A stretch of 62,328 nt of DNA, the filler included, from Chrysochromulina tobinii (Eukaryota), in NCBI GenBank assembly GCA_001275005.1. It is 5 parts of 5 records of this genome, joined end to end, with 100 filler letters (N's around TTAATTAATTAA, not from the genome) between each part and the next. Parts side by side here need not be neighbours in the genome. Positions count along the whole stretch, not along the records: positions 1 to 18,255 come from JWZX01001125.1; 4 more parts are not named here. One strand, written 5' to 3'. The position numbers were made by a program, and so were the translations under genes. Below the pieces are notes generated by a model that worked only from the letters and a program-made list of their open reading frames with translations, had not been told where the DNA came from and did no database searches. Of this stretch, positions 3,209 through 17,256 are shown piece after piece (within the stretch, counting starts at the first letter, position 1; each line of letters opens with the position of its first letter).

Positions 3209-4479
3209 ATGGCCTCCTCCGTGTCGGCGCAAGAGCCAGATGACGAGCGCGATTGCCTCGGAGCTATTCCTGTGCCGATGAGCGGTGGAGATAACCAATG
3301 GCTCCAATTCATGGCCAACGTGGCACCTGTGCGAGCAGCATATGCAGCCACTTTCGGTATTGTCACGACAAATTTGTCTAAGGGGGATGGCAAGATTCAT
3401 AGATCGACCATGAAGTACTGCTTGGATGCGAACCATCGAACCAAAAGGTATGCCAATTACCAAGGCCGGTAGTCTCATGCTGTGCTTGAGCCTTGGTTGC
3501 GCAGTTCGATGCTCTATCTGGGGCTCTTCGGAATGGAGGCCGGTGTGCTCACGCGTTTACCTCCTGCAGATCCTCATGCCACGCGCGAGAGTGCCATCGC
3601 CTGGTCTGATGCGCCCCACGCTTGATTGCCGCAGCGACTCGCGTATTGGCAATCAAGAAGATGGAGGAGGCAAAAGGTATCGAGAGGGACCACAAGCAGC
3701 TTCATGGAAAGGAAACGTTCATCGTGTATATGAGCGAGGAGGATAAGAAATCAAAGATCTTCAAAACGCTCGAGGAGACCGTCGAGGCCCGAGCAGAGGC
3801 GATCGGCATCCCGAGGAGGTGCGCGCGCAAGCGAACCGCTCGCTGCGGGCTAGCTGCTGAGTCCTTGTCTGCTGTGTCGGCTGTGATGTCGGCTGCTGTT
3901 TCAAATTTGTGCAGCGTGCTTGCCAAGGTCGACGCTGCCTATCGGGCAAAAGAGGAGTGGGAGCACGCCATCAAAGAGCTACACAACGAGGAGACGGTAC
4001 GGTCGGATCAGGGCGCCGAGCTTCCGGCAACCCTCCAGGTGTTCCATGACCTCCAGGCGCGTGCCAACAAGGCAAAAGCACAAAAGGAGGAGACCGACAC
4101 AACCAAGCTCCAAGAGCTCCTCACGTCTGCCAAGGTGGAGCTTGACTACATCGACAAAAAGGTGAAAGAGCTAGACGACGAGATTAAGAAGATCCCTCCG
4201 AAGATCGAGGGCCTGAAGAAGGAGAACGCCAAACTTGATTGCAACATCATCCAGCTCGCATCGTCTGACGACGAGGAGAAGATGGCCGCCGCGATGAGAG
4301 AGCGGCGGAACAACCGCGATAAGATTTCGGAGCACGAGGGAAAGAAGTTTGTTCTGAACGAGGCCATCGAGAAGTGCAAGAAGGAAAAGACGGAACTCGA
4401 AGAGACGATGAAGAGGATCGGAGAAATGATCGGAGGAGCGCTTCCATCGGCGAAAAAGCAGCGAAAAACGAAGGCTTAA
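3209..4479 (+). CDS. Spliced hypothetical protein with long C-terminal coiled coil; apparent 1-nt frameshift near 3620
   Basis: ORF 3622-4479 is K/E-rich heptad sequence ending KKQRKTKA. The upstream exon starts MASSVSAQ, with an acceptor CTGCAG at 3569. The frame DPHATRESAIAWSDAPHA joins LIAAATRV only with one extra base. Confidence 0.45.
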
Positions 4480-5370
4480 GAAGATCCTGATGAAGATCCA
4501 GATGAAGATGATTGAAACGAAGGCTCGGGGCAGGGAAGAAGCACGTGAGTTCGCTCTTCGCAACTGCACTAGCGACGCAATGGAGGTTAGGGACGCGAAC
4601 ATCAACACGCGTGCATTTGTGAACCAGGGAGACCTGGGTCGTGTAGTACACGAATCACGATTCGATACGGCGACATACGGGCCGCATCGCGCATGAACCA
4701 TGATTGTGAGGAACGCGCGAGAACCGACCAGAACCTCGGGGCGTCGGGCGTGTATGGTGTATCGAATGCGCCGGAGCGGGACGGTGCATGGAGAGTCAGC
4801 GCATGGTTGTCACATGGGACTGGAGATCAACGGAGATGGCGCCTTGATTGTTGATCGGAGAGATCTAGAAAAGTTTGTCTTACCATCTCGCGGATTCGAC
4901 AGCGAACGACACCCGCAAACCGGGTATCGAACCCCGCGCGTTTCGTCAAACCGCAATGACCAATTGTGATATGATGTGACATTTATGTGTCCCGTCCGTT
5001 CTGATAGAGTATCAGAGTATCGGGTCGACAGCCGCGCGCGACGCGGCCCGCAAGCGCAAGAGCCAAGACACCGCTGCCTCACCGGGGTCCGGCGTACATA
5101 CGGATTACATACGGATGCGATTAACACTAGCTCGGGGACCCCTGGCGCCCCTATTATCACAGCCATATACTCGATCAGCCGCCGGGCCGGGCCGCTAAGG
5201 GCCGCTTAACGCTTTACCATCTAACGAACTCGACAGAACGAGTTTAATCAATTAATAAAAATACTGTAAGGTACCGGACCCTGTTGTCATCACAGTGGAT
5301 TCAATAATACTTTCACCGGGGTCCGGGGGGCTCCGGGCGCAATAGGAATTCCTACATCTTGTATTGAGCC

Positions 5371-5530
5371 CTGTCGTGGCTGTCGTAAGGCTGTCGTCCC
5401 TGTCGAGCTGTCGAGCTGTCGAGGCTCCGTCGAGTTAACCGTCGAGGCGCTGTCGAGGCGCTGTCGGGCTGTCGAGGCCTTGCCTGTCGAGCCTGTCGAG
5501 TAGTACCCAGCTGTCGAGTAGCTGTCGAGT
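5371..5530 (+). repeat. Irregular array of CTGTCG(AG) units
   Basis: 13 CTGTCG plus 2 CCGTCG copies in 160 bp, all in the same orientation. Confidence 0.9.
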
Positions 5531-6040
5531 ACTACATGTACGTATAAATGTCCACATCTGTCGCCGCTCCCGGCGTCCCGGGGCCGGAGGACGCAGAGCG
5601 CCTTCCCGGACGAGCTGCACTCGACGACACAGAAGCAGCAGTAACCCTCCACTACGCCCACATAACGCCCACACCCCCCCGTCGAACCCCCCCGTACCAC
5701 ACTAAGTACCACACAGGTGTACCATACGCATATACCACCATACCCTAGTTGACCATACCTTCATTTATAGAACCACACCGCACTGAGACGCACTAAAACA
5801 CGCCCCCCTCCATCCCACCAATACAAACTCCAATTGGCTGGGCTATCCAGACGCCGCGTCCACGCCCAAGTAGGAGACGAGCCACACCGATTCTCCCATT
5901 GTCGCGTGTACCGTGTGAACGTTCACACTCCTTGATTTTTTATCGTTTGAAGCAAGCAGACCGTGTATGGTTTCAGAAGAATGCCGCTCCGGGAGGCGTG
6001 CTAGTAAGCTTCGCCCATTTCAGACCTCACGGGGCATAAG

Positions 6041-6191
6041 ATGGCATCGCTCGCAGATGCAAAGCAGAAGATCTTAGCAATGAAGAAGAAACGAGAAGAA
6101 GAAACGGCAGCGCAGGCAGCGGCGAAGAAGGCCACCGCACAACTCGCTGCGCCTCCTGCTGCAACGCCAGCCCCGGCCCCAGCCCCGGTCC

Positions 6192-6222
<31 letters not shown>

Positions 6223-8956
6223 ACCCATCGCCCTGAGCGACGCGCCGCCGCCGCCGAAGAAGAATGCGAAGAAGAGCGACGGCGGCCAAGCCGCATCCGC
6301 ACTGCCCGCTCCCACGCCTGCACCCGCTCCAACGCCCGTCCCCGCTCCCGCTGCGCCTTCGGCCGAGTCGGCGAAGAAAACCGCAAAGAAAGCCGCAAAG
6401 GAGGCTCCCGCTGCCGCGGCGGCGGCGGGCGCAACTCCCGCGGGCGGCGCATCGTCAAGCTCTGTCAGCGGCGCATCGACGATGTCTGCCGTTGCGGGCG
6501 ATGGCGAGTCCAAGAAGGCCAAACTCGTTCCAGCGGTGGCGCCACAGGCCGCGAAGCCTCAGACGATGGAGGAGGCTGAGGGGGAGGCGCTAGCGCCGGC
6601 ATCGAACCCGCCAGGCATCAATTGGAGCTGGCTTGAGGCCATACCACCACACAGCGACAAAAGCTACAGCCTCAAGAGCCTGTGCCAGCAGAAGGGTCTG
6701 GACGACACGGGATTAGCAAAGAAGTTGGTAGCCCGTCTCATCGAAGCAGGTGGCCCCACGCTGGAGAGTCTCCGTGAGATGTGCAAGGCTGCAGGCTTGG
6801 GCACGTCCGGCGGCAGGAAGCAACTGGCTGACCGCTTGTGGAATCAGCAGCATGCCTTCCTCGACGCTGCGAAGAGGGGCGATTTCGAGGAGGTGCGAAA
6901 GCTCCTCGAGGTCCATTCGCATCTTGTCAACGTGCAACCTGGGGGTCGCTGGTCTGCGCTGCATCAGTTCGCGCAAAAAGGTAACAAAGATGCGGTCAAG
7001 TACTTGCTTGAGAAGGGTGCGGGCACCTGCGTGGTCAACAAAGACGACGACACGCCCCGGGAGGTGACGCCCCTGGACGCCCCTGCAGTCAGGTCGATGC
7101 TTCAAGACAAGGAGGACCAGACGCTCTCGGCCATCTCAAAGGTCATCAAAAGCCATGTTCACCGTCTCGACGATCATTGCACTACTAAAAATTCGATTCG
7201 AATGGACTTGCAAGGCAGAGGGTACGTAGAGGGTACGCATTATCGCCGGCAATGGTTCAAGGATCAGATCGAACGCGAAAGGACTGATTCCCTTGACATT
7301 CTCAACTTCAAGCAGGCTGCCAAAGAGGCAGATATTCAGCTCGACGGCTCTGAGACTAAGACGAAGATCATTGAGAAGCTCGCTGGAAAGCTTGCTAAGC
7401 AAGTGGAGGAAGAGGAGGCGAAGTCTGCGGTCCCTTGGAACCTTCATGGGTTCAAGAAGCGCAGCCTCGAAAAGCTCGGTGCGGCCCGCCTAAAGGTCCT
7501 CTGCTGGGAGCGCGACCTCGACGTGAAGAAGAAGGCGCACTCCACTACCTGTATCCAACGGCTCATGGAGTGGAAGAAGAAGCCGACTTCGGAACCCACC
7601 ATAACTGAGGAGTCCATCGCGGCTGAGGAGCCCATGGAAGAGGAGTCGGACGCGGGTGACGGCGGTGAGAAAGATGATGATGATGATGGGGAGGACGCGA
7701 TCCCGCTTCCAGTCGAGCTGCGTGACAACCCGGGCCTGGTTCGAGTCCAAAAATCAAAGCTCCAAACCTACGGCAAGGAAATCTTGCGCAAGCTATGTTC
7801 CGACCGTCGCATCCCTGGAATCCGTAAGAACTGCAGCAATGTGCAAAAGATGGCGGATGCGCTCGCCCGCTGGCGTGGAACCCCAAAGGCAAAGCAGTGG
7901 GTCGAGGAGCAGGCTTCTGACGACGACGACGAGGAGGAGGAGGAGGACAAGCCGATGGATATCCCGGAAGATGATGGGTTCGCCGTCTCTGACAAAGTCT
8001 ATGTTGAAGGCGAGAGCAGGCGGGGGCAGATCATGGAGATTGGGTCTGGTGACCGGAAAGGCCAGGTTCGAGTCCGCATCCCGTTCCGTCCGTCGCAATG
8101 GGTTGATGTGGAGAAAGTCAGATATGAGACTTTCGCTGCCAAGCAAAAGGGCAACCGGGAGGCTGACTGTGAGCCTTCAGCAAAGAAGAAGAAGATGGCC
8201 CCAGAACAATCTGCCTCTTCCTCATCGGCCTTCGGTGCCAAGACCAAAGAGGCAGATTATTACTCCGCACTCAATAATGAAAATCGCGAGAAAATTATGA
8301 AGATCGTCGAAGACTATCTCAAGATGCAGCGTCTGGAGGAAGAGAATAAGCAGCTCCAGGAGGATGTAGGGGAGGCAAAAAAGTTGCTGAGAAAGGCTGG
8401 TGCCCAGATCATGAAGCTCGAGGCGCAACTCAGCGATGGCAGTGGCCTTCTGACTAAGGAGCAGTCAAAGCAGCTGAAAAAGCTGGAGGACGATAAACGG
8501 ATTCCGACAGGCTACATGGAAATCAAAGCTTACAGGAAAGCGCTTGAGGAGCGGGGCCTCCTTGAGAAGGCGGCAGGTGCGGCGCACGAGGGCCAGCATG
8601 TGTTTCATATCATTGCGGCTGCCAATGGTGGACCGGACCACACAGACAACTATCTCTTCGCGCTTGGTGGCACATTCAACATCGCAGTCGGTGCTCACCT
8701 GGACCATTTCAATTGCTTTCTCGCCGGCAAGGCGAAAGCCATGAAGGCCGTTGCGATTGCCATGCAGGCCGCAAAGGACCCTGCGCTTCATAGATGGATC
8801 AGAACACCAACAGGCAAGGACTTTCGGATCTACACCGAAGGTAAGCACAAGGGCAAAACGGGTGAAGATCTGTTCAACGACGGCCAGAAGGTTTTCCGCG
8901 CCATCCGCGACGAGGAACGCAACCGCATGAAGGCCAAGGGGTCCTCGAGCACGTGA
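6041..8956 (+). CDS. 971-aa intronless multidomain nuclear protein: Pro/Ala-rich region, SAP-like motifs, ankyrin repeats, Tudor/SH3-like barrel, coiled coil, C-terminal HNH-like nuclease
   Basis: SAP-like SLKSLCQQKGLDDTGLAKKLVARL and LESLREMCKAAGLGTSGGRKQLADRL; ankyrin FLDAAKRGDFEEVRKLL and WSALHQFAQKGNKDAVKYLLEKGA; FAVSDKVYVEG..GQI..VRV..WV; HVFHIIAAANGGPDHTDNY..TFN. Confidence 0.8.
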
Positions 8957-9722: not shown

Positions 9723-12700
9723 TCACGTCCGCTCCTCCGCGTCGTGCACGCTCGCGAGAATCTCGGCGGCCTCGCCGAGGCCGAGCCGGAAGACGCCGTA
9801 CTCCTCCAGGCGGCGGCGCAGCGCAGCCTCGTGCTCGTGGCGGCCCTGCATCTGGCTGGGCGTCTCAGCCAGGATGGCCTCCACGAGCGCCAAGCGCGTC
9901 GGCCGAGGGAGCGCGAGCAGCTGGCAGCTCTCGTGTAGTCGGCGGAGGGCCGCTTGCGGGCGCACTGCGAGTGGCACGAAGAGCGCGGCGAGCGCACTCA
10001 CGTCGCGGAGCAGCTGGCGCGCGCCCGCCGCCGAGAAGGCCCCCCGGCGCACGAGCTGGGTGTACAGCAGCGTGTCGACCGCGGTGGCGATGGGCGGCCA
10101 GACGCGCCGTAGGGAAGCGGGCGGCAGCGCGGCGCGCAGGCCACTCAGCTCGGCGTGGAGCCTAGCGAGCGGCTCACAGAGCGAAGGGGACAGATCAAGC
10201 AGCTCGAGCGCCGCGCTGCCGCTGCCATCGGCACCGGCGTCGCTCCCGCCGCCGCTGCTCCCGCCGTCGTAGGCTGTCGGGAGCAGCAGGCGGAAGTCAC
10301 GCACACTCGCCTCGGTGAGGTAGGGGCGGCATGCGCTCACAAAGCCCGCTGTGACGGTCTCAACGACAAGCGCCTCACACTCGGCAAGCAGTGCAGCCCA
10401 TGCCTGTAAGAGTGGTGAGAGCGGCCCCGCCGCCGCCGTCGACGCGCCCTCTGTTCCCACGTCGGCCGTTGCGCTCGCGAGCGAGGCCGCAGCGCTCGCG
10501 GCGCCGGCGCGCGCCGTAGTGGTCAGCTTGTCCGCCGCCGAGCGTGCGAGGGCAGCCACGAAGGACGAGGGCGTGTGAATGTGAACGAAGGACGAGGGCG
10601 TGCAAGCCGTGCTGCCGCCGCGGCCGCCAGCCGCCGGCGACGCCAGCACTGCCCGCCGCCGATGGCGCGGCGGCGGCGGGCGCCGTGGCGGGCCCGGACG
10701 GCCCTCGGAGACTCGCGACTGGCGAGGGCGGCTCCATACTCGCGGCTGAGGCGTTGGAGACCGCTCCAGCATCGGAGCTGCCCGTGCTAGCACCGGCGGC
10801 AGCGCTGTCCTTGGCGCCCTTGTGGACGAGGGCAGCAAGCGGCGGCAATTCGTGCCAGTCATGCAGCAGGGGCGACGCATACGTGACGATGTGGGCGAGG
10901 GCGCCCACCTGCCCCCAGCTACCCACCTCCCGTGAGCCCACTCGGCACAGCTCGAGCCTCGTGTGCATCTTGGCGCCAAAGAGCTCGAGGAGCGGCACGA
11001 GCACCTTGTGCACGAACGCGCGCTGTGCGGGCTCGTCTGAGAGGAGCCGCAGGCGCTCAAGAAGCTTCTCGCAGTGTCGCATCACCACGACCGCACACGC
11101 CGGAGGGACAGTGCGCGCACCGCCCAAGCTACACCCGTCGGCCAGTCCGCCGCACGCTAGCCGGCCGGCGGCCGCGGCCTGGCCACTGCTGGCCACACGG
11201 CCGTCGCCCATGGACGCGTGCGGCCCTTCGGGTGGCGCGTCGGCGGCGCCGCCCACGCCGCCCGCCCCGCCGGCAAAGGGGTCGGCGGCGGTGGGTGGTG
11301 GGCCCGCGCGCCAGCTGCCTTCGTCTGCAGTGGCGCGCTCAAGCATAGCGCGCCCGTCCTCGCCCTCGATGCGCAGCCAGAGGTGCAGCGCCGCGGGCTC
11401 GGCTGTGAACGCGGGCAGCGCACCGCCCACCCCAAGGGGCAGCCCGAACCCGTCACGCAGCTCGCGGTCGAAGGCGGCCGCCTCGTTGAGAGCGTGGCAG
11501 AAGAGGCGAGCGTGCTGCCGCAGCGCGGGCTGCTCGCGTCGCAACTTGCTCCGGATGGCGCCGCAGATCGCGCCCGCGACGGCGCCGAAGATGCTGTGCG
11601 GGCATCGCTCGCGCAGCATCGCGCTGTAAGCCTCCGCCTCCGCGCGCGCCATCTCGGGCGGCGCGAGCGCACCATGGAGCCACGGCAGCGGCGCGAGGAG
11701 CACTGGCGGGAGCGTCTCTTGCAGCAGTGGCGTGTGCAGGCGCAGCAGGCTCGCGCAGTGCGTGAACATCCACTCGGGCTTGTCCCTTCGGTTCGTCTCG
11801 CGCCGCCCCTCGAAGTGGTATCGGAACCGGCGCAATACCGGCGTGACCAGCGCCTCAATTGCCCACAGGCCGCCGCGGTCGCCGTCGCCGTCGCCGTCGC
11901 CGCCGCGGCCGCCGCTGCCGCCGCCGCTGCCGCGGCCGCCGCTGCCGCTGCCGCTGCCGCCCGCAGCGATGGGATCGGGGCCGCGTGCCTCGCAGCAGTG
12001 CTGGAGCAGCAGCAGCTCGCCGAGCGCGGCGCGCACCTCGCCAAGGGCGGCCGAGTCCGGGCCGACGATCGTCTTCTGGAGCTCTGCTGGCCAGCCGAGG
12101 TTGCTCAGTGCCTTGGCCGCGCGCTGTCCAAAGGCGTCGCGCAGCGGCGGCTCGAGCGCACGCATGCGGGCGTCGAGGTGCTTGACCAGTGACGCGATCG
12201 CCGCGGCCGCCGCGGGAGCGTCATCGGTGGCGGATGCCGCCGCATCGTCAGAGGTTTCGACAGAGGTTGACAACAAGTTGGCCGCCATGCGCACGCTTGT
12301 GCGAAGCGCATGCAGCTGCAGCAGCGCCTGCATCGCGGGCGACTGGGCACCAAGGGGCACGGATGATGTCGTCGCCGACTGAGAGGATGGCTTCGTCTCC
12401 GCGTGGCGCTGCGTGCGCTCCACCTGCTCGACCAGCTTGTTGGCTGTCGCGAGGGTGTGGAGCACGAGCTGCGCCTCGCGCAGCCGGCGCAGCCGCGCGC
12501 GCGGCGGGCCCAAGCGGCTGGCGAGCTGCGTCGCCACGTCCAGATGCGTCTTGACCGTCTCCTCGAAGCGCGCGCGCTCCGCATCGAGTGCGCCCAGACG
12601 GATGAGCGCCGCTCCCGCTTGTTCGCTAGCCTGTGAGAGCGCCGTGGGCAGGGCGGCCTCGGCAGCGGCCAGCTGCTCCTCGAGCGCCGCCACCTGACGC

Positions 12701-12798
12701 GTGAGGTCGCGCGCAAGCGGCTCCGCGCGGGACAGACTGGCAAGGTCGTCGAAGCAGGCGAGGAGCGTGGAGGGCCCGGAGCTTACAGACGGCGACAT
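9723..12798 (-). CDS. RINT1: RINT-1/TIP20 family ER-Golgi tethering protein (frame change near 10600-10660)
   Basis: Family signature RFRYHFEGRRETNRRDKPEW (~11771-11830), N-terminal coiled coil, and C-terminal FSAAGARQLLRDV..L..LF in the 9723-11060 frame. A short intron or a frameshift links the two ORFs. Confidence 0.85.
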
Positions 12799-12951
12799 GA
12801 CGCAGAGCGCGTCGCTAGTTGCGCCGCTCCATTATGCTACGTCAATCGTAAAACTCTACGAGAGGATGTGGATGTCGATTCAAGGAAATGCCTGACGACA
12901 TTCGTCCTTCGATATGCGACTCGCTAGTTTCGCGCCAATCTGCATCGGGCA

Positions 12952-14760
12952 ATGATGGTCGGGAGCGACGGCAGCCTATTTCCCACGACTGCGGCCGTGG
13001 CAGTTGCTGTCGCGCCGGCTGCGGCCGTGCCAGTCGCTGGCGCTCAGTCTACGGCCGTACCGTGTCTGCCGCTGCAGTCGCCGTCGCAGCCCGTGGTCAC
13101 TTCCACTTTGACGTCTGTCGCCTCCCGACCACAACGTGCCTCAGCCCTGCCACCCGGAAGCTGGTGCAACCTGACGTGGCAGGGTTACTCGGCCATCGCG
13201 GCCTACTCGCGGATCGGCCAGGCGAATGGGACGCAGCATCCGCCGCCGCTTGTGGACGCGCAGCCTGTGTACGTCAACGCCTACCCTGCTGCATCCATGT
13301 CGGCAGCGGCATCCAGCCAGCTGGGCACCAAGCAGCCGGCGGCCAAGGCGCAGCGCTTTCCGAAGCGCGTGCACAAGCAGCCCTCGCAGCCGCAGATGCC
13401 GTTTGTGCGCCCGACCATCTACTCGACCGAGAACCCCGCGCCAGATGTGAACGAGGCCCACCTCTCGATCACGCATGGCGACTGCGTCGAGGGCATGAAG
13501 CTGCTCGCAAACGCGTCCGTGGACCTGGTGATCGCGGACCCTCCGTACGATATCGGCGTGGGCAAGGCGGTGTGGGACACCGTGCCGCACTATATGCAGT
13601 GGTCGCGCACATGGCTTGCCGAGGCGGTGCGTGTGCTCAAGCCAGGCGGCGCCCTGATGCTCTACGGCTCGCCAGAGCGGCTGTGGATCTGCCATCTGAA
13701 GATCATGTGCGCGGACGAGTTTGGGCTCGAGTTCAAGCAGCACATCAGCTGGGTGTACAAGCAGGGCGGCGACTCGCGCATGAACAATATGGTCAAGTAC
13801 GCGGTGCGCATGGAGCATCTCGAATGGTTCGTCAAGCCGGGCGCCGGGCACACGTTCAACCTGGACGCGGGCACCGAGGCCTACTCGGAGGCGGAGTTCA
13901 AGGAGGCGCTCGCCAAGGGCGTCGGGCGGGTCACGGCCGAATCGCTCTCGCGCGGCAAGCCGCCCAAGAACTGGTGGGACATCCCGCGCGAGAACTCGCG
14001 CTCCAAGGAGCGCGAGTATGGTTCGCACCCCTCGATGAAGCCGCTGCGCATCTGCGACCGCATCGTTGGTATCCACTCGAACGTGGGAGACACCGTGCTC
14101 GTGCCCTTTGGCGGGAGCGGCTCCGAGTGCGTGGCCGTCGGCGCCGCTGGGCGCAAGCTCGTCGCGTACGAGCAGGAGGCCGAGTACCATCGGATCATTG
14201 TTCGCCGAATGAAGGGGTGGGGACTGCTCTCAGGGCCGCCCACGCCGCCGCCGCTCGAGCCGAGTGCTGCCGCGGCAGGCGAGACGAAGGAGAGCGAGGC
14301 GGAGGAGAGCGAGGAACTCCCGCGCGCGGCTAGGCTGCTGCCTCCGACGCTGCCGATACCGCCGCCGACGGGCGCGCTGGCCGTGGCTCTCCTGGCCATT
14401 GGAGGCGCGGCTGCGATTGGGCCGCCAGCGCCTCCAGTGTCGCCCGGCCCATCGGCCTTTCCGGCGCAGCCCTTGGCGCAGCCACCGTCGGCAGTACCGG
14501 CGCACTCGCTCGCGGCGGGGTCCATACTCGCCGCCCTAACAGCCACTCAGCCGCAGCCGTTACTTCTCTCCTCGCACAAACGGCCGAGGCCGGATGAACC
14601 GCTCGGGACAGCGCTTCGACTCGGGCTACCAGTCGTGATGGCGGGCGGCTTAGCTAGCCCCATGCATGTGGCCCTGCCGCTCGCGACACCGCTCGTGACG
14701 CTCGCGACACCCGGGCCACCCGCGCCCGGTGATCCCTCGGACCGCATGCATCTCTATTGA
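12952..14760 (+). CDS. Beta-class DNA N6-adenine/N4-cytosine methyltransferase (N6_N4_Mtase) with low-complexity extensions
   Basis: ITHGDCVEGMKLLANASVDLVIADPPY (DPPY at 13537-13548), VLKPGG, HPSMKP and GDTVLVPFGGSGS (SAM motif I, ~14090-14124). Motif IV precedes motif I, which is the beta permutation. Confidence 0.92.
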   Translation: MMVGSDGSLFPTTAAVAVAVAPAAAVPVAGAQSTAVPCLPLQSPSQPVVTSTLTSVASRPQRASALPPGSWCNLTWQGYSAIAAYSRIGQANGTQHPPPLVDAQPVYVNAYPAASMSAAASSQLGTKQPAAKAQRFPKRVHKQPSQPQMPFVRPTIYSTENPAPDVNEAHLSITHGDCVEGMKLLANASVDLVIADPPYDIGVGKAVWDTVPHYMQWSRTWLAEAVRVLKPGGALMLYGSPERLWICHLKIMCADEFGLEFKQHISWVYKQGGDSRMNNMVKYAVRMEHLEWFVKPGAGHTFNLDAGTEAYSEAEFKEALAKGVGRVTAESLSRGKPPKNWWDIPRENSRSKEREYGSHPSMKPLRICDRIVGIHSNVGDTVLVPFGGSGSECVAVGAAGRKLVAYEQEAEYHRIIVRRMKGWGLLSGPPTPPPLEPSAAAAGETKESEAEESEELPRAARLLPPTLPIPPPTGALAVALLAIGGAAAIGPPAPPVSPGPSAFPAQPLAQPPSAVPAHSLAAGSILAALTATQPQPLLLSSHKRPRPDEPLGTALRLGLPVVMAGGLASPMHVALPLATPLVTLATPGPPAPGDPSDRMHLY

Positions 14761-15496
14761 CGACCGCGCGCCCATGTCGCGTCTGCGCCTCGACGTCCCC
14801 GCGCTACGCGGCCCACGCGCGTGCGTCCCGGAGCCTGTCGCATGTCATTACGTACTTGCTACTTCGCTTTCGAGTTTCGTACAGGCACGGGTGTGCAGAT
14901 GTACATTTTCTACACATGAGAGATGAGACATTCACATCGTGAGTGGTGAGGGATTCACGCGGAGCACGAGAGAGCGTCAGCGTGCTGCGTGTGGCCTGCG
15001 GCGATCAGAACGATGTAGCTCTGACGAGATTTATACGCCGCCGGTCGACGAGGTCGAGGACCTTCGACCGTCGCGCGTCGGCGGCGCTTTGTTAAATTGA
15101 AATTGCGCGCAACGGCGCACGGGTAAAAATACCGAAATTGACGTTGATTGCGCTCATCGTAGAGGCCGCACGGCCAGTCTGGCCGTCCGATGAAGGACGG
15201 ACCGCCACACGCGGTGGGCGGCGGGACTCGGCGCACTGTGCACCGATCCACTCAGACAGTGCCCCGCAGTCATGACCAGAGGTCATGGCTGCGGGACAGA
15301 TAATGCCCACGAAGTCGTCGACGCATGGTAGATGCCCAAGTCGAAGTCGGTCTGCTTCGCCACCCTCTCGCCAGACTTTGGCTTCGCCGAACATCCTCAC
15401 ATGAGCATGCCATGGACCACGGGACTCTCGCACGCGTAGCTGCCATCGTCCCACCGAAGCCGCCACTCATCGCACGGGCTAATCCCTCGCACACTG

Positions 15497-15593
15497 GACC
15501 TCGAGCGAACGACAAACATCGACAGCTAGACCTCGAGCGAACGACCAACATCGACGGCTAGACCTCGGAGCGAACGACAAACATCGACGGCTA
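15497..15593 (+). repeat. Three tandem 32-33 bp repeats GACCTCG(G)AGCGAACGACAAACATCGACRGCTA
   Basis: Units start at 15497, 15529 and 15561 and differ at only a few positions. Confidence 0.9.
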
Positions 15594-16246
15594 AAGCGCC
15601 TGGACAAAGCACCGGCTGCACAGCGCGACAGGAACCAGCAACAGGAGAAGGACACACGACAGCAAAGAGGAAGACACAGCGTTCATAGAGATGGTTCGCA
15701 ACAACGGAAGCGGCACTAGACGGCATGGAAGCACAGATCGCGAGAGCGCACGTCCATACGACGGCTAGTCGACATCTAAGAGGACGGCTAGAGGAGAGCT
15801 AAGGCCGGCTAAGGGGTTGGTCAAAGTCTCTACGAGTAAGTCTCTGCGCGCGACGCGAACACGAGGAGTGGAACCACGCGTGAGAGAGCAGGGCGAGGGG
15901 TGAGAGGGCAGGGCGAGGGGTGAGAGAGCGGAGCGAGGCATCAGCAGCACCAGGGGCGGCTGACTCACAGCGACTAAAAGAGGGCGACGAAGAAGAGGAA
16001 GGTCCCGTGTCTTTGAGAAAGAGAAGCTTTGCGAGTAGCGAGCGAGTGCGTGATCTTGGTGGAAAAGCGGAGATGGTGGATGGGAGTAGCCGACAGAGAG
16101 CGAGAAAGCGTAGTGGTGGGCAGAGATGGTGGATGGGAGTAGCCGACAGAGCGAGAGAGCGCAGTGGGGGCGTCGAGATGTGTCGTGCATCGAGTGAAGC
16201 CTGTCGTGTTGTGCGTCGAGGGTTGTGCGCCATGTCGCGAGAGAGC

Positions 16247-16316
16247 CGTGGTGCAATGCCAGTGGTGCAATGCCAGTGGTGCAGTGCCAGTGGTGCAGTG
16301 CCGGTGCAGCAGTGCC
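16247..16316 (+). repeat. 14-bp tandem repeat GTGGTGCARTGCCA
   Basis: About 4-5 degenerate copies. Confidence 0.75.
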
Positions 16317-17256
16317 AGAGATACGGGCTGTGCTATGTGGCGAGGGGCGTGGCTGCACCACCTCGATCGCGGCGTTCGTGTTCCGTAGGTGAAGCTCCTC
16401 TCGTGGTCGTTCCTAATTCCTGGCCGCAGTGGACGAGGAGACGAAGGGCGCCACCCGGACACGCCAAGGCACAGGGGCGCAGAACGCGGCGCGGGCACGG
16501 GCGCGGCTGTGCGGGCAAAGATTGGGGCGTGGCATAGCGTGGCCGGTACCACTCGACGAAGAAATATGGACTCTGCTGCTCCTCTGGTCAATTCCTCTGG
16601 TCACCTGAGACCACACGTGTGGCGGAGGAGGCGGAGGGCGCGACCAGAAGCAGCAGCAGCAGCGGCGGCGGCAGCAGCACTGGCCGATGGCAGACGACTC
16701 AGAGACCAGGCGAAGCGAAGAAACAGGCGACGGCGGGCGCAGCGGGTCGGCTGAGGCGTGTGCTTGGGAGGAGGCGGGGATGGAGGCACTGTCCTTCACT
16801 GCGAGTTGCGTGGAAGAGAGACGAATGGTCTCGAGACATGATGGTCTTTGCAGGTACACCTGACGACGCTGATTGGTGGAGGCGCGGGCGGGGCAAACCG
16901 GCAAGAACGACGGAGGCGAGGCGAGGGAGGAGCGGAGAACGAGGCGAACAGGTCGCTGGCGAAGATGCAATCGAATGGGAGCCGCAATGGGGCGAGTGGA
17001 GATTGGGCGGCGAGAAGAGGCAGTCGGAAGCAGTCGGAGGCAGTCGGAGCGCCGGGCTGCGTATCGTCAGGGCGGCCTACGCCATCGAGAAAAGCAGACC
17101 CTGAGACTGCAGGTGGGCGCCTTTTGACATTTGCTGATTCGCCTCGATTCGTTTTTCGACGTTTCTGTTTCTACCGTCTTGTTCACAGTCGTCAGTCCAC
17201 GCGCCTGGCCGCCTGAGCGGTAAAGTGAGCGAAAATGGACGAAAAATAACCGTCAC

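What the first reader, a model, noticed from the sequence alone, without database searches (positions are those of the whole stretch)
12952..14760. Bacterial restriction-modification-type beta-class DNA methyltransferase embedded in a eukaryotic gene neighbourhood
Seen: intact DPPY, HPxxKP and FxGSG motifs in beta order, no intron, long eukaryote-like disordered tails, and a head-to-head position with RINT1 (153 bp between start codons), which argues against contamination. Established: DPPY beta-class enzymes usually make N6mA; eukaryotic 6mA writers are mostly MT-A70, and a horizontally acquired N4C MTase is known in bdelloid rotifers. Inference: a domesticated non-MT-A70 epigenetic writer. 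Motif I reads LVPFGGSGS rather than the usual LDPFxGSGT.
Basis: partly seen in the sequence, partly recalled or inferred. Interest (0 to 1): 0.8.

Follow-up and report, generated by a model that had tools for sequence, protein, structure and literature searches.

The report
Haptophyte-wide, virus-shared DNA methyltransferase family
This intact gene from a haptophyte alga encodes a bacterial-type DNA methyltransferase of a clade found in both haptophyte classes, whose members often carry DNA- and histone-binding domains and whose closest relatives are likely viral, so these algae likely have an undescribed, still untested way of marking their DNA.

Summary
Observation confirmed. Window 12952-14760 is one 602-aa ORF with an intact beta-class amino-methyltransferase (PF01555; best fold matches M.RsrI, CcrM, M.BceJIV), 153 nt head-to-head with RINT1. 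Its catalytic domain is identical to Chrysochromulina tobinii KOO34711.1, so it is a nuclear haptophyte gene, not contamination. It is not a one-off: it belongs to a clade (support 93/99) that includes Pavlovales, Diacronema, Emiliania and Chrysochromulina proteins. 25 of 38 clade proteins tested carry an AP2-like domain after the enzyme; a few add zf-CW, chromo or Tudor-like domains. The window's own subclade lacks them all. The nearest relatives (45-55% identity) are about 80 short stand-alone enzymes; one lies beside an intron-split terminase gene, which points to mirusviruses. True prokaryotic hits reach only 39%. The direction of virus-host transfer is unresolved. The odd motif I is shared with bacterial relatives and is not a sign of decay. 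RNA contigs from four studies cover pieces of the ORF. No activity, base or target site is shown; 6mA is inferred from DPPY. My searches found no description of the clade. Verdict: new variant of a known kind (parallel to rotifer N4CMT); interest 0.66.

The parts
12952..14760 (+). 602-aa ORF: beta-class DNA amino-methyltransferase with low-complexity tails (catalytic domain identical to Chrysochromulina tobinii KOO34711.1)
13462..14226 (+). Catalytic domain, aa 171-425 (PF01555 aa 190-417); predicted fold matches M.RsrI, CcrM, M.BceJIV
13537..13548 (+). Motif IV, DPPY (catalytic)
   Evidence: DPPY in 29 of 29 haptophyte-clade rows
13750..14013 (+). Likely target-recognition region between motif IV and motif X, strongly conserved in haptophyte and virus-like members; about 20 aa shorter in the C. 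parva-type paralogue
   Evidence: role inferred from beta-class layout
14026..14043 (+). HPSMKP motif (HPxxKP)
14101..14127 (+). Motif I variant VPFGGSGSE (SAM binding)
13126..13269 (+). Two short conserved blocks in the N-terminal tail (aa 59-84 and 97-106), kept in 4 of 4 subclade proteins; role unknown
13360..13377 (+). Basic patch before the domain, conserved in the subclade; possible nuclear localisation signal (inferred)
14578..14589 (+). KRPR in the C-terminal tail, kept in 4 of 4 subclade proteins; possible nuclear localisation signal (inferred)
12799..12951 (.). 153-nt gap between the divergent start codons; likely shared promoter (inferred)
9723..12798 (-). RINT1/TIP1 gene (eukaryotic neighbour; one extra base in the window relative to L081)

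Best explanation
The gene encodes an intact beta-class methyltransferase of a clade shared by both haptophyte classes, which likely transfers a methyl group from SAM to the exocyclic amine of adenine (6mA) at a short fixed site in nuclear DNA. Shown: intact motifs and fold, strong conservation of the domain, presence in named Pavlovophyceae and Prymnesiophyceae, reader-domain fusions in relatives, RNA contigs over the ORF. Inferred: an early haptophyte exchanged this enzyme with large DNA viruses (likely mirusviruses), fused it to an AP2-like DNA-binding domain before the two classes split, and later added histone readers (zf-CW, chromo, Tudor-like) that would steer it in chromatin. The window copy is a paralogue that lost the AP2-like domain but kept the full target-recognition region, so it would find sites by sequence alone or through a partner. 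Like other beta-class enzymes it would work as a dimer and flip the target base (established knowledge, not tested here).
For: PF01555 E 1.3e-36; model pLDDT 82, pTM 0.83; the ten best Foldseek rows are N6-adenine enzymes (M.RsrI, CcrM, M.BceJIV, M.MboIIA), 4mC enzymes come lower (rank 14 on). Domain identity to three subclade relatives is 98/93/87% against 77/49/38% (N-tail) and 81/47/34% (C-tail); 3 of 3 RNA-contig variants in the domain are synonymous. Named members: Pavlovales CCMP2436, Diacronema lutheri, Emiliania huxleyi, C. tobinii, C. parva. Clade is one side of a branch, 98 SH-aLRT in the 100-row quick tree and 93/99 in the 74-row careful tree. AP2-like profile hits 25 of 38 clade proteins, 11 of which built the profile; Pfam AP2 E 5e-4 in P0009; Atlas look-alikes are haptophyte clusters. 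zf-CW in P0035, P0037, P0177; chromo in P0035, P0177; Tudor-like in P0027, P0037. RNA contigs of 5 runs from 4 studies, two of them polyA, cover pieces of the ORF.
Against: No methylation data for any haptophyte were found and no activity was tested. DPPY does not guarantee adenine: some DPPY/F beta-class enzymes make 4mC (recalled), and identity to any characterised enzyme is about 30%, too low to predict a site. The window protein has no AP2-like, CW, chromo or Tudor domain, so the chromatin argument comes from paralogues. The haptophyte clade's bootstrap (93) is just under the starred threshold and the model had no mixture. Most clade rows are unnamed environmental proteins, called haptophyte by me from tree position and architecture. 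RNA evidence is from assembled contigs of runs chosen for holding the stretch; it shows no strand or level, and DNA carry-over is not excluded. The first 45 aa hold a moderately hydrophobic stretch, so organelle targeting is not excluded, though it is not conserved.
Confidence: 0.6

Rival explanations
1. Same gene and history, but the enzyme makes N4-methylcytosine in DNA, as the rotifer enzyme N4CMT does.
For: PF01555 holds both activities; rotifer N4CMT structures are matched at E 3e-17; the chromodomain fusion parallels N4CMT.
Against: Motif IV is DPPY in 29 of 29 haptophyte rows, whereas N4CMT and most bacterial 4mC enzymes have SPPY (PMC8885841 passage); best structural matches are 6mA enzymes.
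Confidence: 0.12
2. The enzyme was redeployed to RNA or single-stranded nucleic acid rather than chromosomal DNA.
For: Iyer et al. report repeated recruitment of such enzymes to RNA (PMC4738411 abstract and section 8); the window copy has no DNA-binding add-on.
Against: No RNA-binding domain was reported in the 36 clade proteins scanned; the fusions are AP2-like and histone-reader domains; the target-recognition region is as conserved as in the virus-like enzymes.
Confidence: 0.08
3. The window's subclade is a later, separate re-capture from a virus (a domesticated viral gene with new tails) serving virus-host conflict, not a paralogue descended from the AP2-fused host gene.
For: The subclade lacks the AP2-like domain and introns, and its sister P0320 is a short 306-aa protein seen on 26 small marine contigs of unknown nature.
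Against: It nests inside the haptophyte clade, not among the short virus-like enzymes; neighbours are ordinary eukaryotic genes with no viral hallmark among those scanned; GC3 of the domain (0.89) is like RINT1 (0.85). No P0320 relative was found in IMG/VR.
Confidence: 0.1
4. The protein is catalytically dead or a non-catalytic partner, kept for DNA binding or as half of a heterodimer.
For: Motif I lacks the usual Asp (V/I-P-F-x-G-S-G-S-E).
Against: The same motif is in 76 of 78 homology-found rows and in hundreds of prokaryotic stretches (344 confirmed relatives of 458 pattern matches, found by that pattern); DPPY, HPxxKP and the motif II Glu are intact.
Confidence: 0.07
5. Bacterial contamination or mis-assembly.
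For: Prokaryote-type enzyme without intron.
Against: Identical domain in the cultured C. tobinii genome; same locus in L081; 51- and 25-member environmental clusters; best true prokaryotic hit 39%; eukaryotic neighbours.
Confidence: 0.01

Closest known systems
Bacterial beta-class N6-adenine DNA methyltransferases M.RsrI (1EG2), CcrM (6PBD), M.BceJIV (8URK), M.MboIIA (1G60)
   Same: PF01555, motif order, DPPY, HPxxKP, fold (phmmer E 7e-28 to M.RsrI; Foldseek E 3e-20, TM about 0.73).
   Different: About 30% identity; motif I reads V/I-P-F-x-G-S-G-S-E; long low-complexity tails; nuclear eukaryotic gene; no partner nuclease; reader-domain fusions in relatives.
N4CMT of bdelloid rotifers (PMC8885841, passages read)
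   Same: Horizontally acquired PF01555 enzyme in a eukaryote; chromodomain fusion as in P0035 and P0177; 'histone-read, DNA-write' layout.
   Different: N4CMT has SPPY and makes 4mC, 22% identity in the structural alignment; this clade has DPPY, an AP2-like domain as its ancestral add-on, and virus-like nearest relatives. The window copy has no chromodomain.
Eukaryotic N6A-MTase clades of Iyer, Zhang and Aravind 2016 (PMC4738411; sections 8 and 14, passages, supplement searches)
   Same: Prokaryote-derived amino-methyltransferases fused to chromatin domains; haptophyte-restricted clades are listed.
   Different: Their permuted clades are MT-A70, an S-motif PPR-fused clade and a Naegleria clade; their haptophyte clade 6 is unpermuted and FHA-fused. 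EMIHUDRAFT_205290 and four family motifs are absent from the supplement text and none of the 38 'haptophyceae' places lists it.
AMT1/MT-A70 6mA writers (bioRxiv 10.1101/2024.10.28.620566; section 5 and passages)
   Same: Permuted amino-methyltransferase fold; presumed nuclear 6mA output.
   Different: MT-A70 structures match only at E 2e-6, 12-17% identity; separate origin. No haptophyte name occurs in that preprint's main text.
Haptophyte-Florenciella DAM clade (bioRxiv 10.64898/2026.05.21.726589; section 5 and passages)
   Same: A prokaryote-type adenine methyltransferase in five Prymnesiophyceae.
   Different: That screen concerns the DAM domain with an Asn-Pro-Pro triplet, not DPPY beta-class PF01555; its sequences are in closed supplements, so overlap was not tested directly.

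Membership tests
Beta-class DNA amino-methyltransferase (PF01555) | PF01555 above the curated cut-off | tested here: met
   127 bits vs 26.7
Beta-class DNA amino-methyltransferase (PF01555) | Motif IV before target-recognition region before motif I | tested here: met
   DPPY aa 196, HPSMKP aa 359, motif I aa 384
Beta-class DNA amino-methyltransferase (PF01555) | Fold of M.RsrI / M.MboIIA type | tested here: met
Beta-class DNA amino-methyltransferase (PF01555) | SAM-dependent methylation of DNA | not testable with these tools
   needs assay or long-read modification calls
Type II restriction-modification system | Adjacent restriction endonuclease gene | tested here: not met
   Neighbours are RINT1 and a stretch without a long ORF
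MT-A70 / AMT1 | MT-A70 profile and DPPW motif | tested here: not met
   No MT-A70 hit at E 0.1; motif is DPPY
Rotifer-type N4CMT | SPPY motif | tested here: not met
   DPPY in 29 of 29 clade rows
Rotifer-type N4CMT | C-terminal chromodomain | tested here: not met
   Absent from the window protein; present in relatives P0035 and P0177
Iyer 2016 group-1 clade 6 (haptophyte) | Unpermuted catalytic domain with N-terminal FHA | tested here: not met
   Permuted order, no FHA in 36 proteins scanned
Haptophyte clade defined here | Falls inside the branch holding Pavlovales, Diacronema, Emiliania and Chrysochromulina proteins | tested here: met
Haptophyte clade defined here | AP2-like domain after the enzyme | tested here: not met
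   Absent in P0001, P0003, P0004, P0005; present in 25 of 38 clade proteins
Mirusvirus gene (for the short relatives) | On a contig with a terminase gene broken by spliceosomal introns | tested here: inconclusive
   Met for 1 of 5 short-member loci held (L160/L253); the other four are ORFan-rich or short pieces with no hallmark found
PCNA-motif DPPY methyltransferase of marine protists (earlier finding e1-7185947) | PIP-box-like motif | tested here: not met
   0 of 28 clade proteins match the pattern

The most novel reading that the evidence does not exclude
Haptophytes have their own chromatin-guided 6mA system, independent of MT-A70, taken from nucleus-replicating mirusviruses before the two haptophyte classes split. 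The family then divided labour: paralogues with AP2-like, zf-CW, chromo and Tudor-like domains (some with a shortened target-recognition region) read DNA and histone marks, while reader-less copies such as this one keep full sequence specificity, possibly as heterodimers. Host and virus would then methylate the same motif, making the mark a currency of virus-host conflict as well as of gene regulation.
Probability: 0.25. Interest if true: 0.87.

Novelty: new variant of a known kind. Interest (0 to 1): 0.66.

Why it matters
Robust eukaryotic 6mA has so far been tied to MT-A70/AMT1, and only a few bacterial amino-methyltransferases are known to have entered eukaryotic chromatin (rotifer and liverwort 4mC enzymes, a fungal 6mA enzyme; passage of PMC12344493). 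An old, phylum-wide case in haptophytes, major ocean primary producers, would add an independent origin of a DNA mark with its own reader domains. It is directly testable: named cultured species carry it, and existing long-read data can be re-called for 6mA and 4mC. The link to mirusvirus-like genomes would also give a host clue for those viruses and a case of virus-host exchange of epigenetic machinery.

Tried and rejected
No whole genome is held for the window, so paralogue number and RINT1 synteny in other species were not tested. Single-protein scans of IMG/VR with P0033, P0182, P0320 and an L083 neighbour found no relative; weak negatives. The profile search for much longer proteins (1457-4160 aa) found none of 4119 candidates; lengths between about 1050 and 1457 aa were covered only. 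GenBank phages gave at most 34% identity. Pfam named 4 of 33 and PHROGs 3 of 15 neighbour ORFs of the short relatives, none a viral hallmark; the terminase exon alone had no PDB match. The AU test did not reject the 30 short enzymes as one clade sister to the haptophytes (p 0.33), so 'haptophytes nested within viruses' is not shown. PADLOC found no nuclease model in 5 of 5 downstream ORFs of bacterial relatives, so those tandem-methyltransferase loci are not proven restriction systems. My intended silent control for the RNA runs (15135-17143) turned out to be covered by a spliced transcript; the uncovered 12690-12950 gap is only a weak control. Thirteen clade proteins lack the AP2-like hit; several are short or look cut by introns or frameshifts (inference), so only the four of the window's subclade are taken as true losses. 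No complex prediction was run: beta-class dimers would pass by likeness to solved structures. A review whose PMC id I recalled was not held. Earlier-findings look-ups by sequence and by place returned nothing.

Full report
Observation. The window holds one ORF at 12952-14760 (+), 602 aa. Pfam PF01555 covers aa 190-417 at E 1.3e-36 and the best NCBIfam model is an adenine-specific DNA methyltransferase (E 3.5e-33, below its cut-off). DPPY, HPSMKP and VPFGGSGSE lie in beta order at aa 196, 359 and 384. RINT1 begins 153 nt upstream on the other strand. Other window genes scanned are eukaryote-type (PDZ-C2, TPR, LRR, ankyrin). An AlphaFold2 model of aa 150-428 (pLDDT 82, pTM 0.83) matches M.RsrI, CcrM, M.BceJIV and M.MboIIA best, rotifer N4CMT from rank 14, MT-A70 proteins only from rank 47.

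Organism and reality of the gene. The catalytic domain is 100% identical over 258 aa to Chrysochromulina tobinii KOO34711.1, which NCBI names only 'DNA adenine methyltransferase'. The protein belongs to a 51-member cluster, with a 25-member sister cluster. Against three subclade relatives the domain keeps 98, 93 and 87% identity while the tails fall to 34-81%. RNA contigs from 5 runs of 4 studies, two of them polyA libraries of one study, cover pieces of the ORF, including the first ATG; 3 of 3 variants in the domain are synonymous. These are assembled contigs from runs selected for holding the stretch, so they show presence, not strand or level. The NCBI model implies an intron at 14217-14469; one contig runs through the donor unspliced and no joint was seen in the gene.

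The family. A search with the domain returned 177 proteins of 331-1054 aa; 36 of the 120 listed form a top tier (164-651 bits, 46-100% identity) and the next scores 122 bits. Named members are Pavlovales sp. CCMP2436, Diacronema lutheri, Emiliania huxleyi (EMIHUDRAFT_205290), C. tobinii and a C. parva paralogue. The rest are unnamed, and I label them haptophyte from tree position and architecture. They form one side of a branch in both trees (29 of 100 rows, SH-aLRT 98; 25 of 74 rows, 93/99; LG+G4, two broken translations left out, the second set thinned by me), with Pavlovales and Diacronema in one 100/100 subclade. That pattern fits inheritance from the haptophyte common ancestor (inference). 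A profile built from 11 members finds a conserved domain right after the enzyme in 25 of 38 clade proteins, in both classes; Pfam AP2 (E 5e-4 and 0.01, below cut-off), a plant AP2 structure (E 0.5) and haptophyte clusters in the Atlas mark it as AP2-like. zf-CW occurs in P0035, P0037 and P0177, a chromodomain in P0035 and P0177, Tudor-like domains in P0027 and P0037. That these domains read methylated histones is recalled knowledge. The window protein and its three nearest relatives have none of them; they keep two short N-terminal blocks, a basic patch and a KRPR motif. The C. parva-type paralogue has the add-on domains but a target-recognition region about 20 aa shorter (6 proteins). Whether both paralogues sit in one genome was not tested.

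Nearest relatives. About 80 of the 120 proteins listed by a profile search are short stand-alone enzymes of about 250-330 aa, 42-56% identical to the window domain. With the haptophyte proteins they form a 100/99 clade. Five loci of such enzymes were obtained (L080, L082, L083, L091, L160; the metagenome scan covered 12 of 64 parts). They are gene-dense and mostly without Pfam or PHROG matches; L083 and L091 share three neighbours. L160 comes from a bin labelled Opitutaceae, but about 3 kb from its methyltransferase lies an exon with a Walker A-type motif between GT..AG introns whose IMG/VR relatives are terminase-like (Terminase_6N, E 2e-4 and 1e-3, just under the cut-off), and the bin holds 10 such matches. 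Intron-rich terminases are a mirusvirus trait (PMC12768974, passages). So at least one, and likely many, of the short enzymes are mirusviral (inference from 1 of 5 loci). IMG/VR gave no close member (best 33% among 80 kept of 379), and true prokaryotic genomes at most 39% (80 kept of 344). The AU test does not reject the short enzymes as a single sister clade (p 0.33), so the direction of transfer is open.

Motif I. V/I-P-F-x-G-S-G-[ST]-E occurs in 76 of 78 rows found by homology and in the prokaryotic relatives, which were selected by that pattern. In those genomes the gene usually follows a second methyltransferase (19 of 20 loci inspected have an upstream ORF, PF01555 in 9 of 9 scanned). 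The variant is therefore an old subfamily trait, not decay; no characterised enzyme with it was identified here.

Mechanism. Most likely a nuclear, SAM-dependent, sequence-specific DNA adenine methyltransferase (0.6); rivals are 4mC (0.12), a separate viral re-capture (0.10), RNA (0.08) and an inactive partner (0.07). Shown: sequence, fold prediction, conservation, distribution, fusions, RNA presence. Inferred: activity, base, nuclear location, chromatin guidance, viral donor.

Comparison and novelty. It works like M.RsrI/CcrM-type enzymes and, at family level, like rotifer N4CMT (PMC8885841, passages), but fails the defining tests for N4CMT, MT-A70 and the haptophyte FHA clade. Iyer et al. 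2016 list three permuted eukaryotic clades, none of this kind, and their supplement text lacks the Emiliania member and the family motifs. The AMT1 survey names no haptophyte in its main text; the 2026 DAM preprint concerns an NPP-type domain. Two mirusvirus papers do not mention methyltransferases in their main text, and 10 supplement files of one lack PF01555 (one file unreadable). Ten library searches showed no paper on this clade; subscription journals and bioRxiv supplements were not visible and could hold a mention. One earlier AI note describes a separate protist DPPY family with a PCNA motif, which 0 of 28 proteins here carry.

Verdict. A real, ordinary-looking enzyme whose interest lies in its family: an old haptophyte clade of bacterial-type methyltransferases with chromatin-reader fusions and virus-like nearest kin, apparently undescribed and easy to test. 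New variant of a known kind; interest 0.66, held down by the lack of any activity data, the absence of reader domains in this copy and the rotifer precedent.

Noticed in passing
window 15135-17143 (minus strand): A spliced transcript (intron 15844-15968, GT..AG on the minus strand) with high contig depth in two RNA runs and no ATG ORF above 93 aa in either unjoined piece; a candidate long non-coding RNA or repeat-derived transcript directly downstream of the methyltransferase.
   Followed up: partly
window 9723-12798: RINT1 has one extra base in the window relative to L081, splitting a 1024-aa ORF in two; likely an assembly error or allele.
   Followed up: yes
window 6041-8956: 971-aa ORF with ankyrin repeats, a weak SAP hit and, by eye, an HNH-like C-terminus; GC3 0.68, lower than neighbours. 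Possibly of mobile origin.
   Followed up: no
G001 (L160, L244-L253): A GTDB bin labelled Opitutaceae holds 10 matches to a mirusvirus-type terminase over several contigs, so it likely contains misbinned eukaryotic-virus DNA.
   Followed up: partly
L161-L191, around 3900-8600: Bacterial relatives with the PFxGSGSE motif occur as tandem methyltransferase pairs beside ORFs with no PADLOC match, several carrying a 4Fe-4S domain; a possible unannotated restriction system.
   Followed up: partly
proteins P0010 and P0030: Both have an insertion within the conserved QGGD motif that reads like a retained in-frame intron, one in a haptophyte-clade protein and one in a short virus-like protein, apparently one codon apart; DNA not available.
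   Followed up: no
protein P0047: A distant PF01555 enzyme with an N-terminal chromodomain (33% identity, outside this clade's top tier), possibly another independent eukaryotic capture.
   Followed up: no
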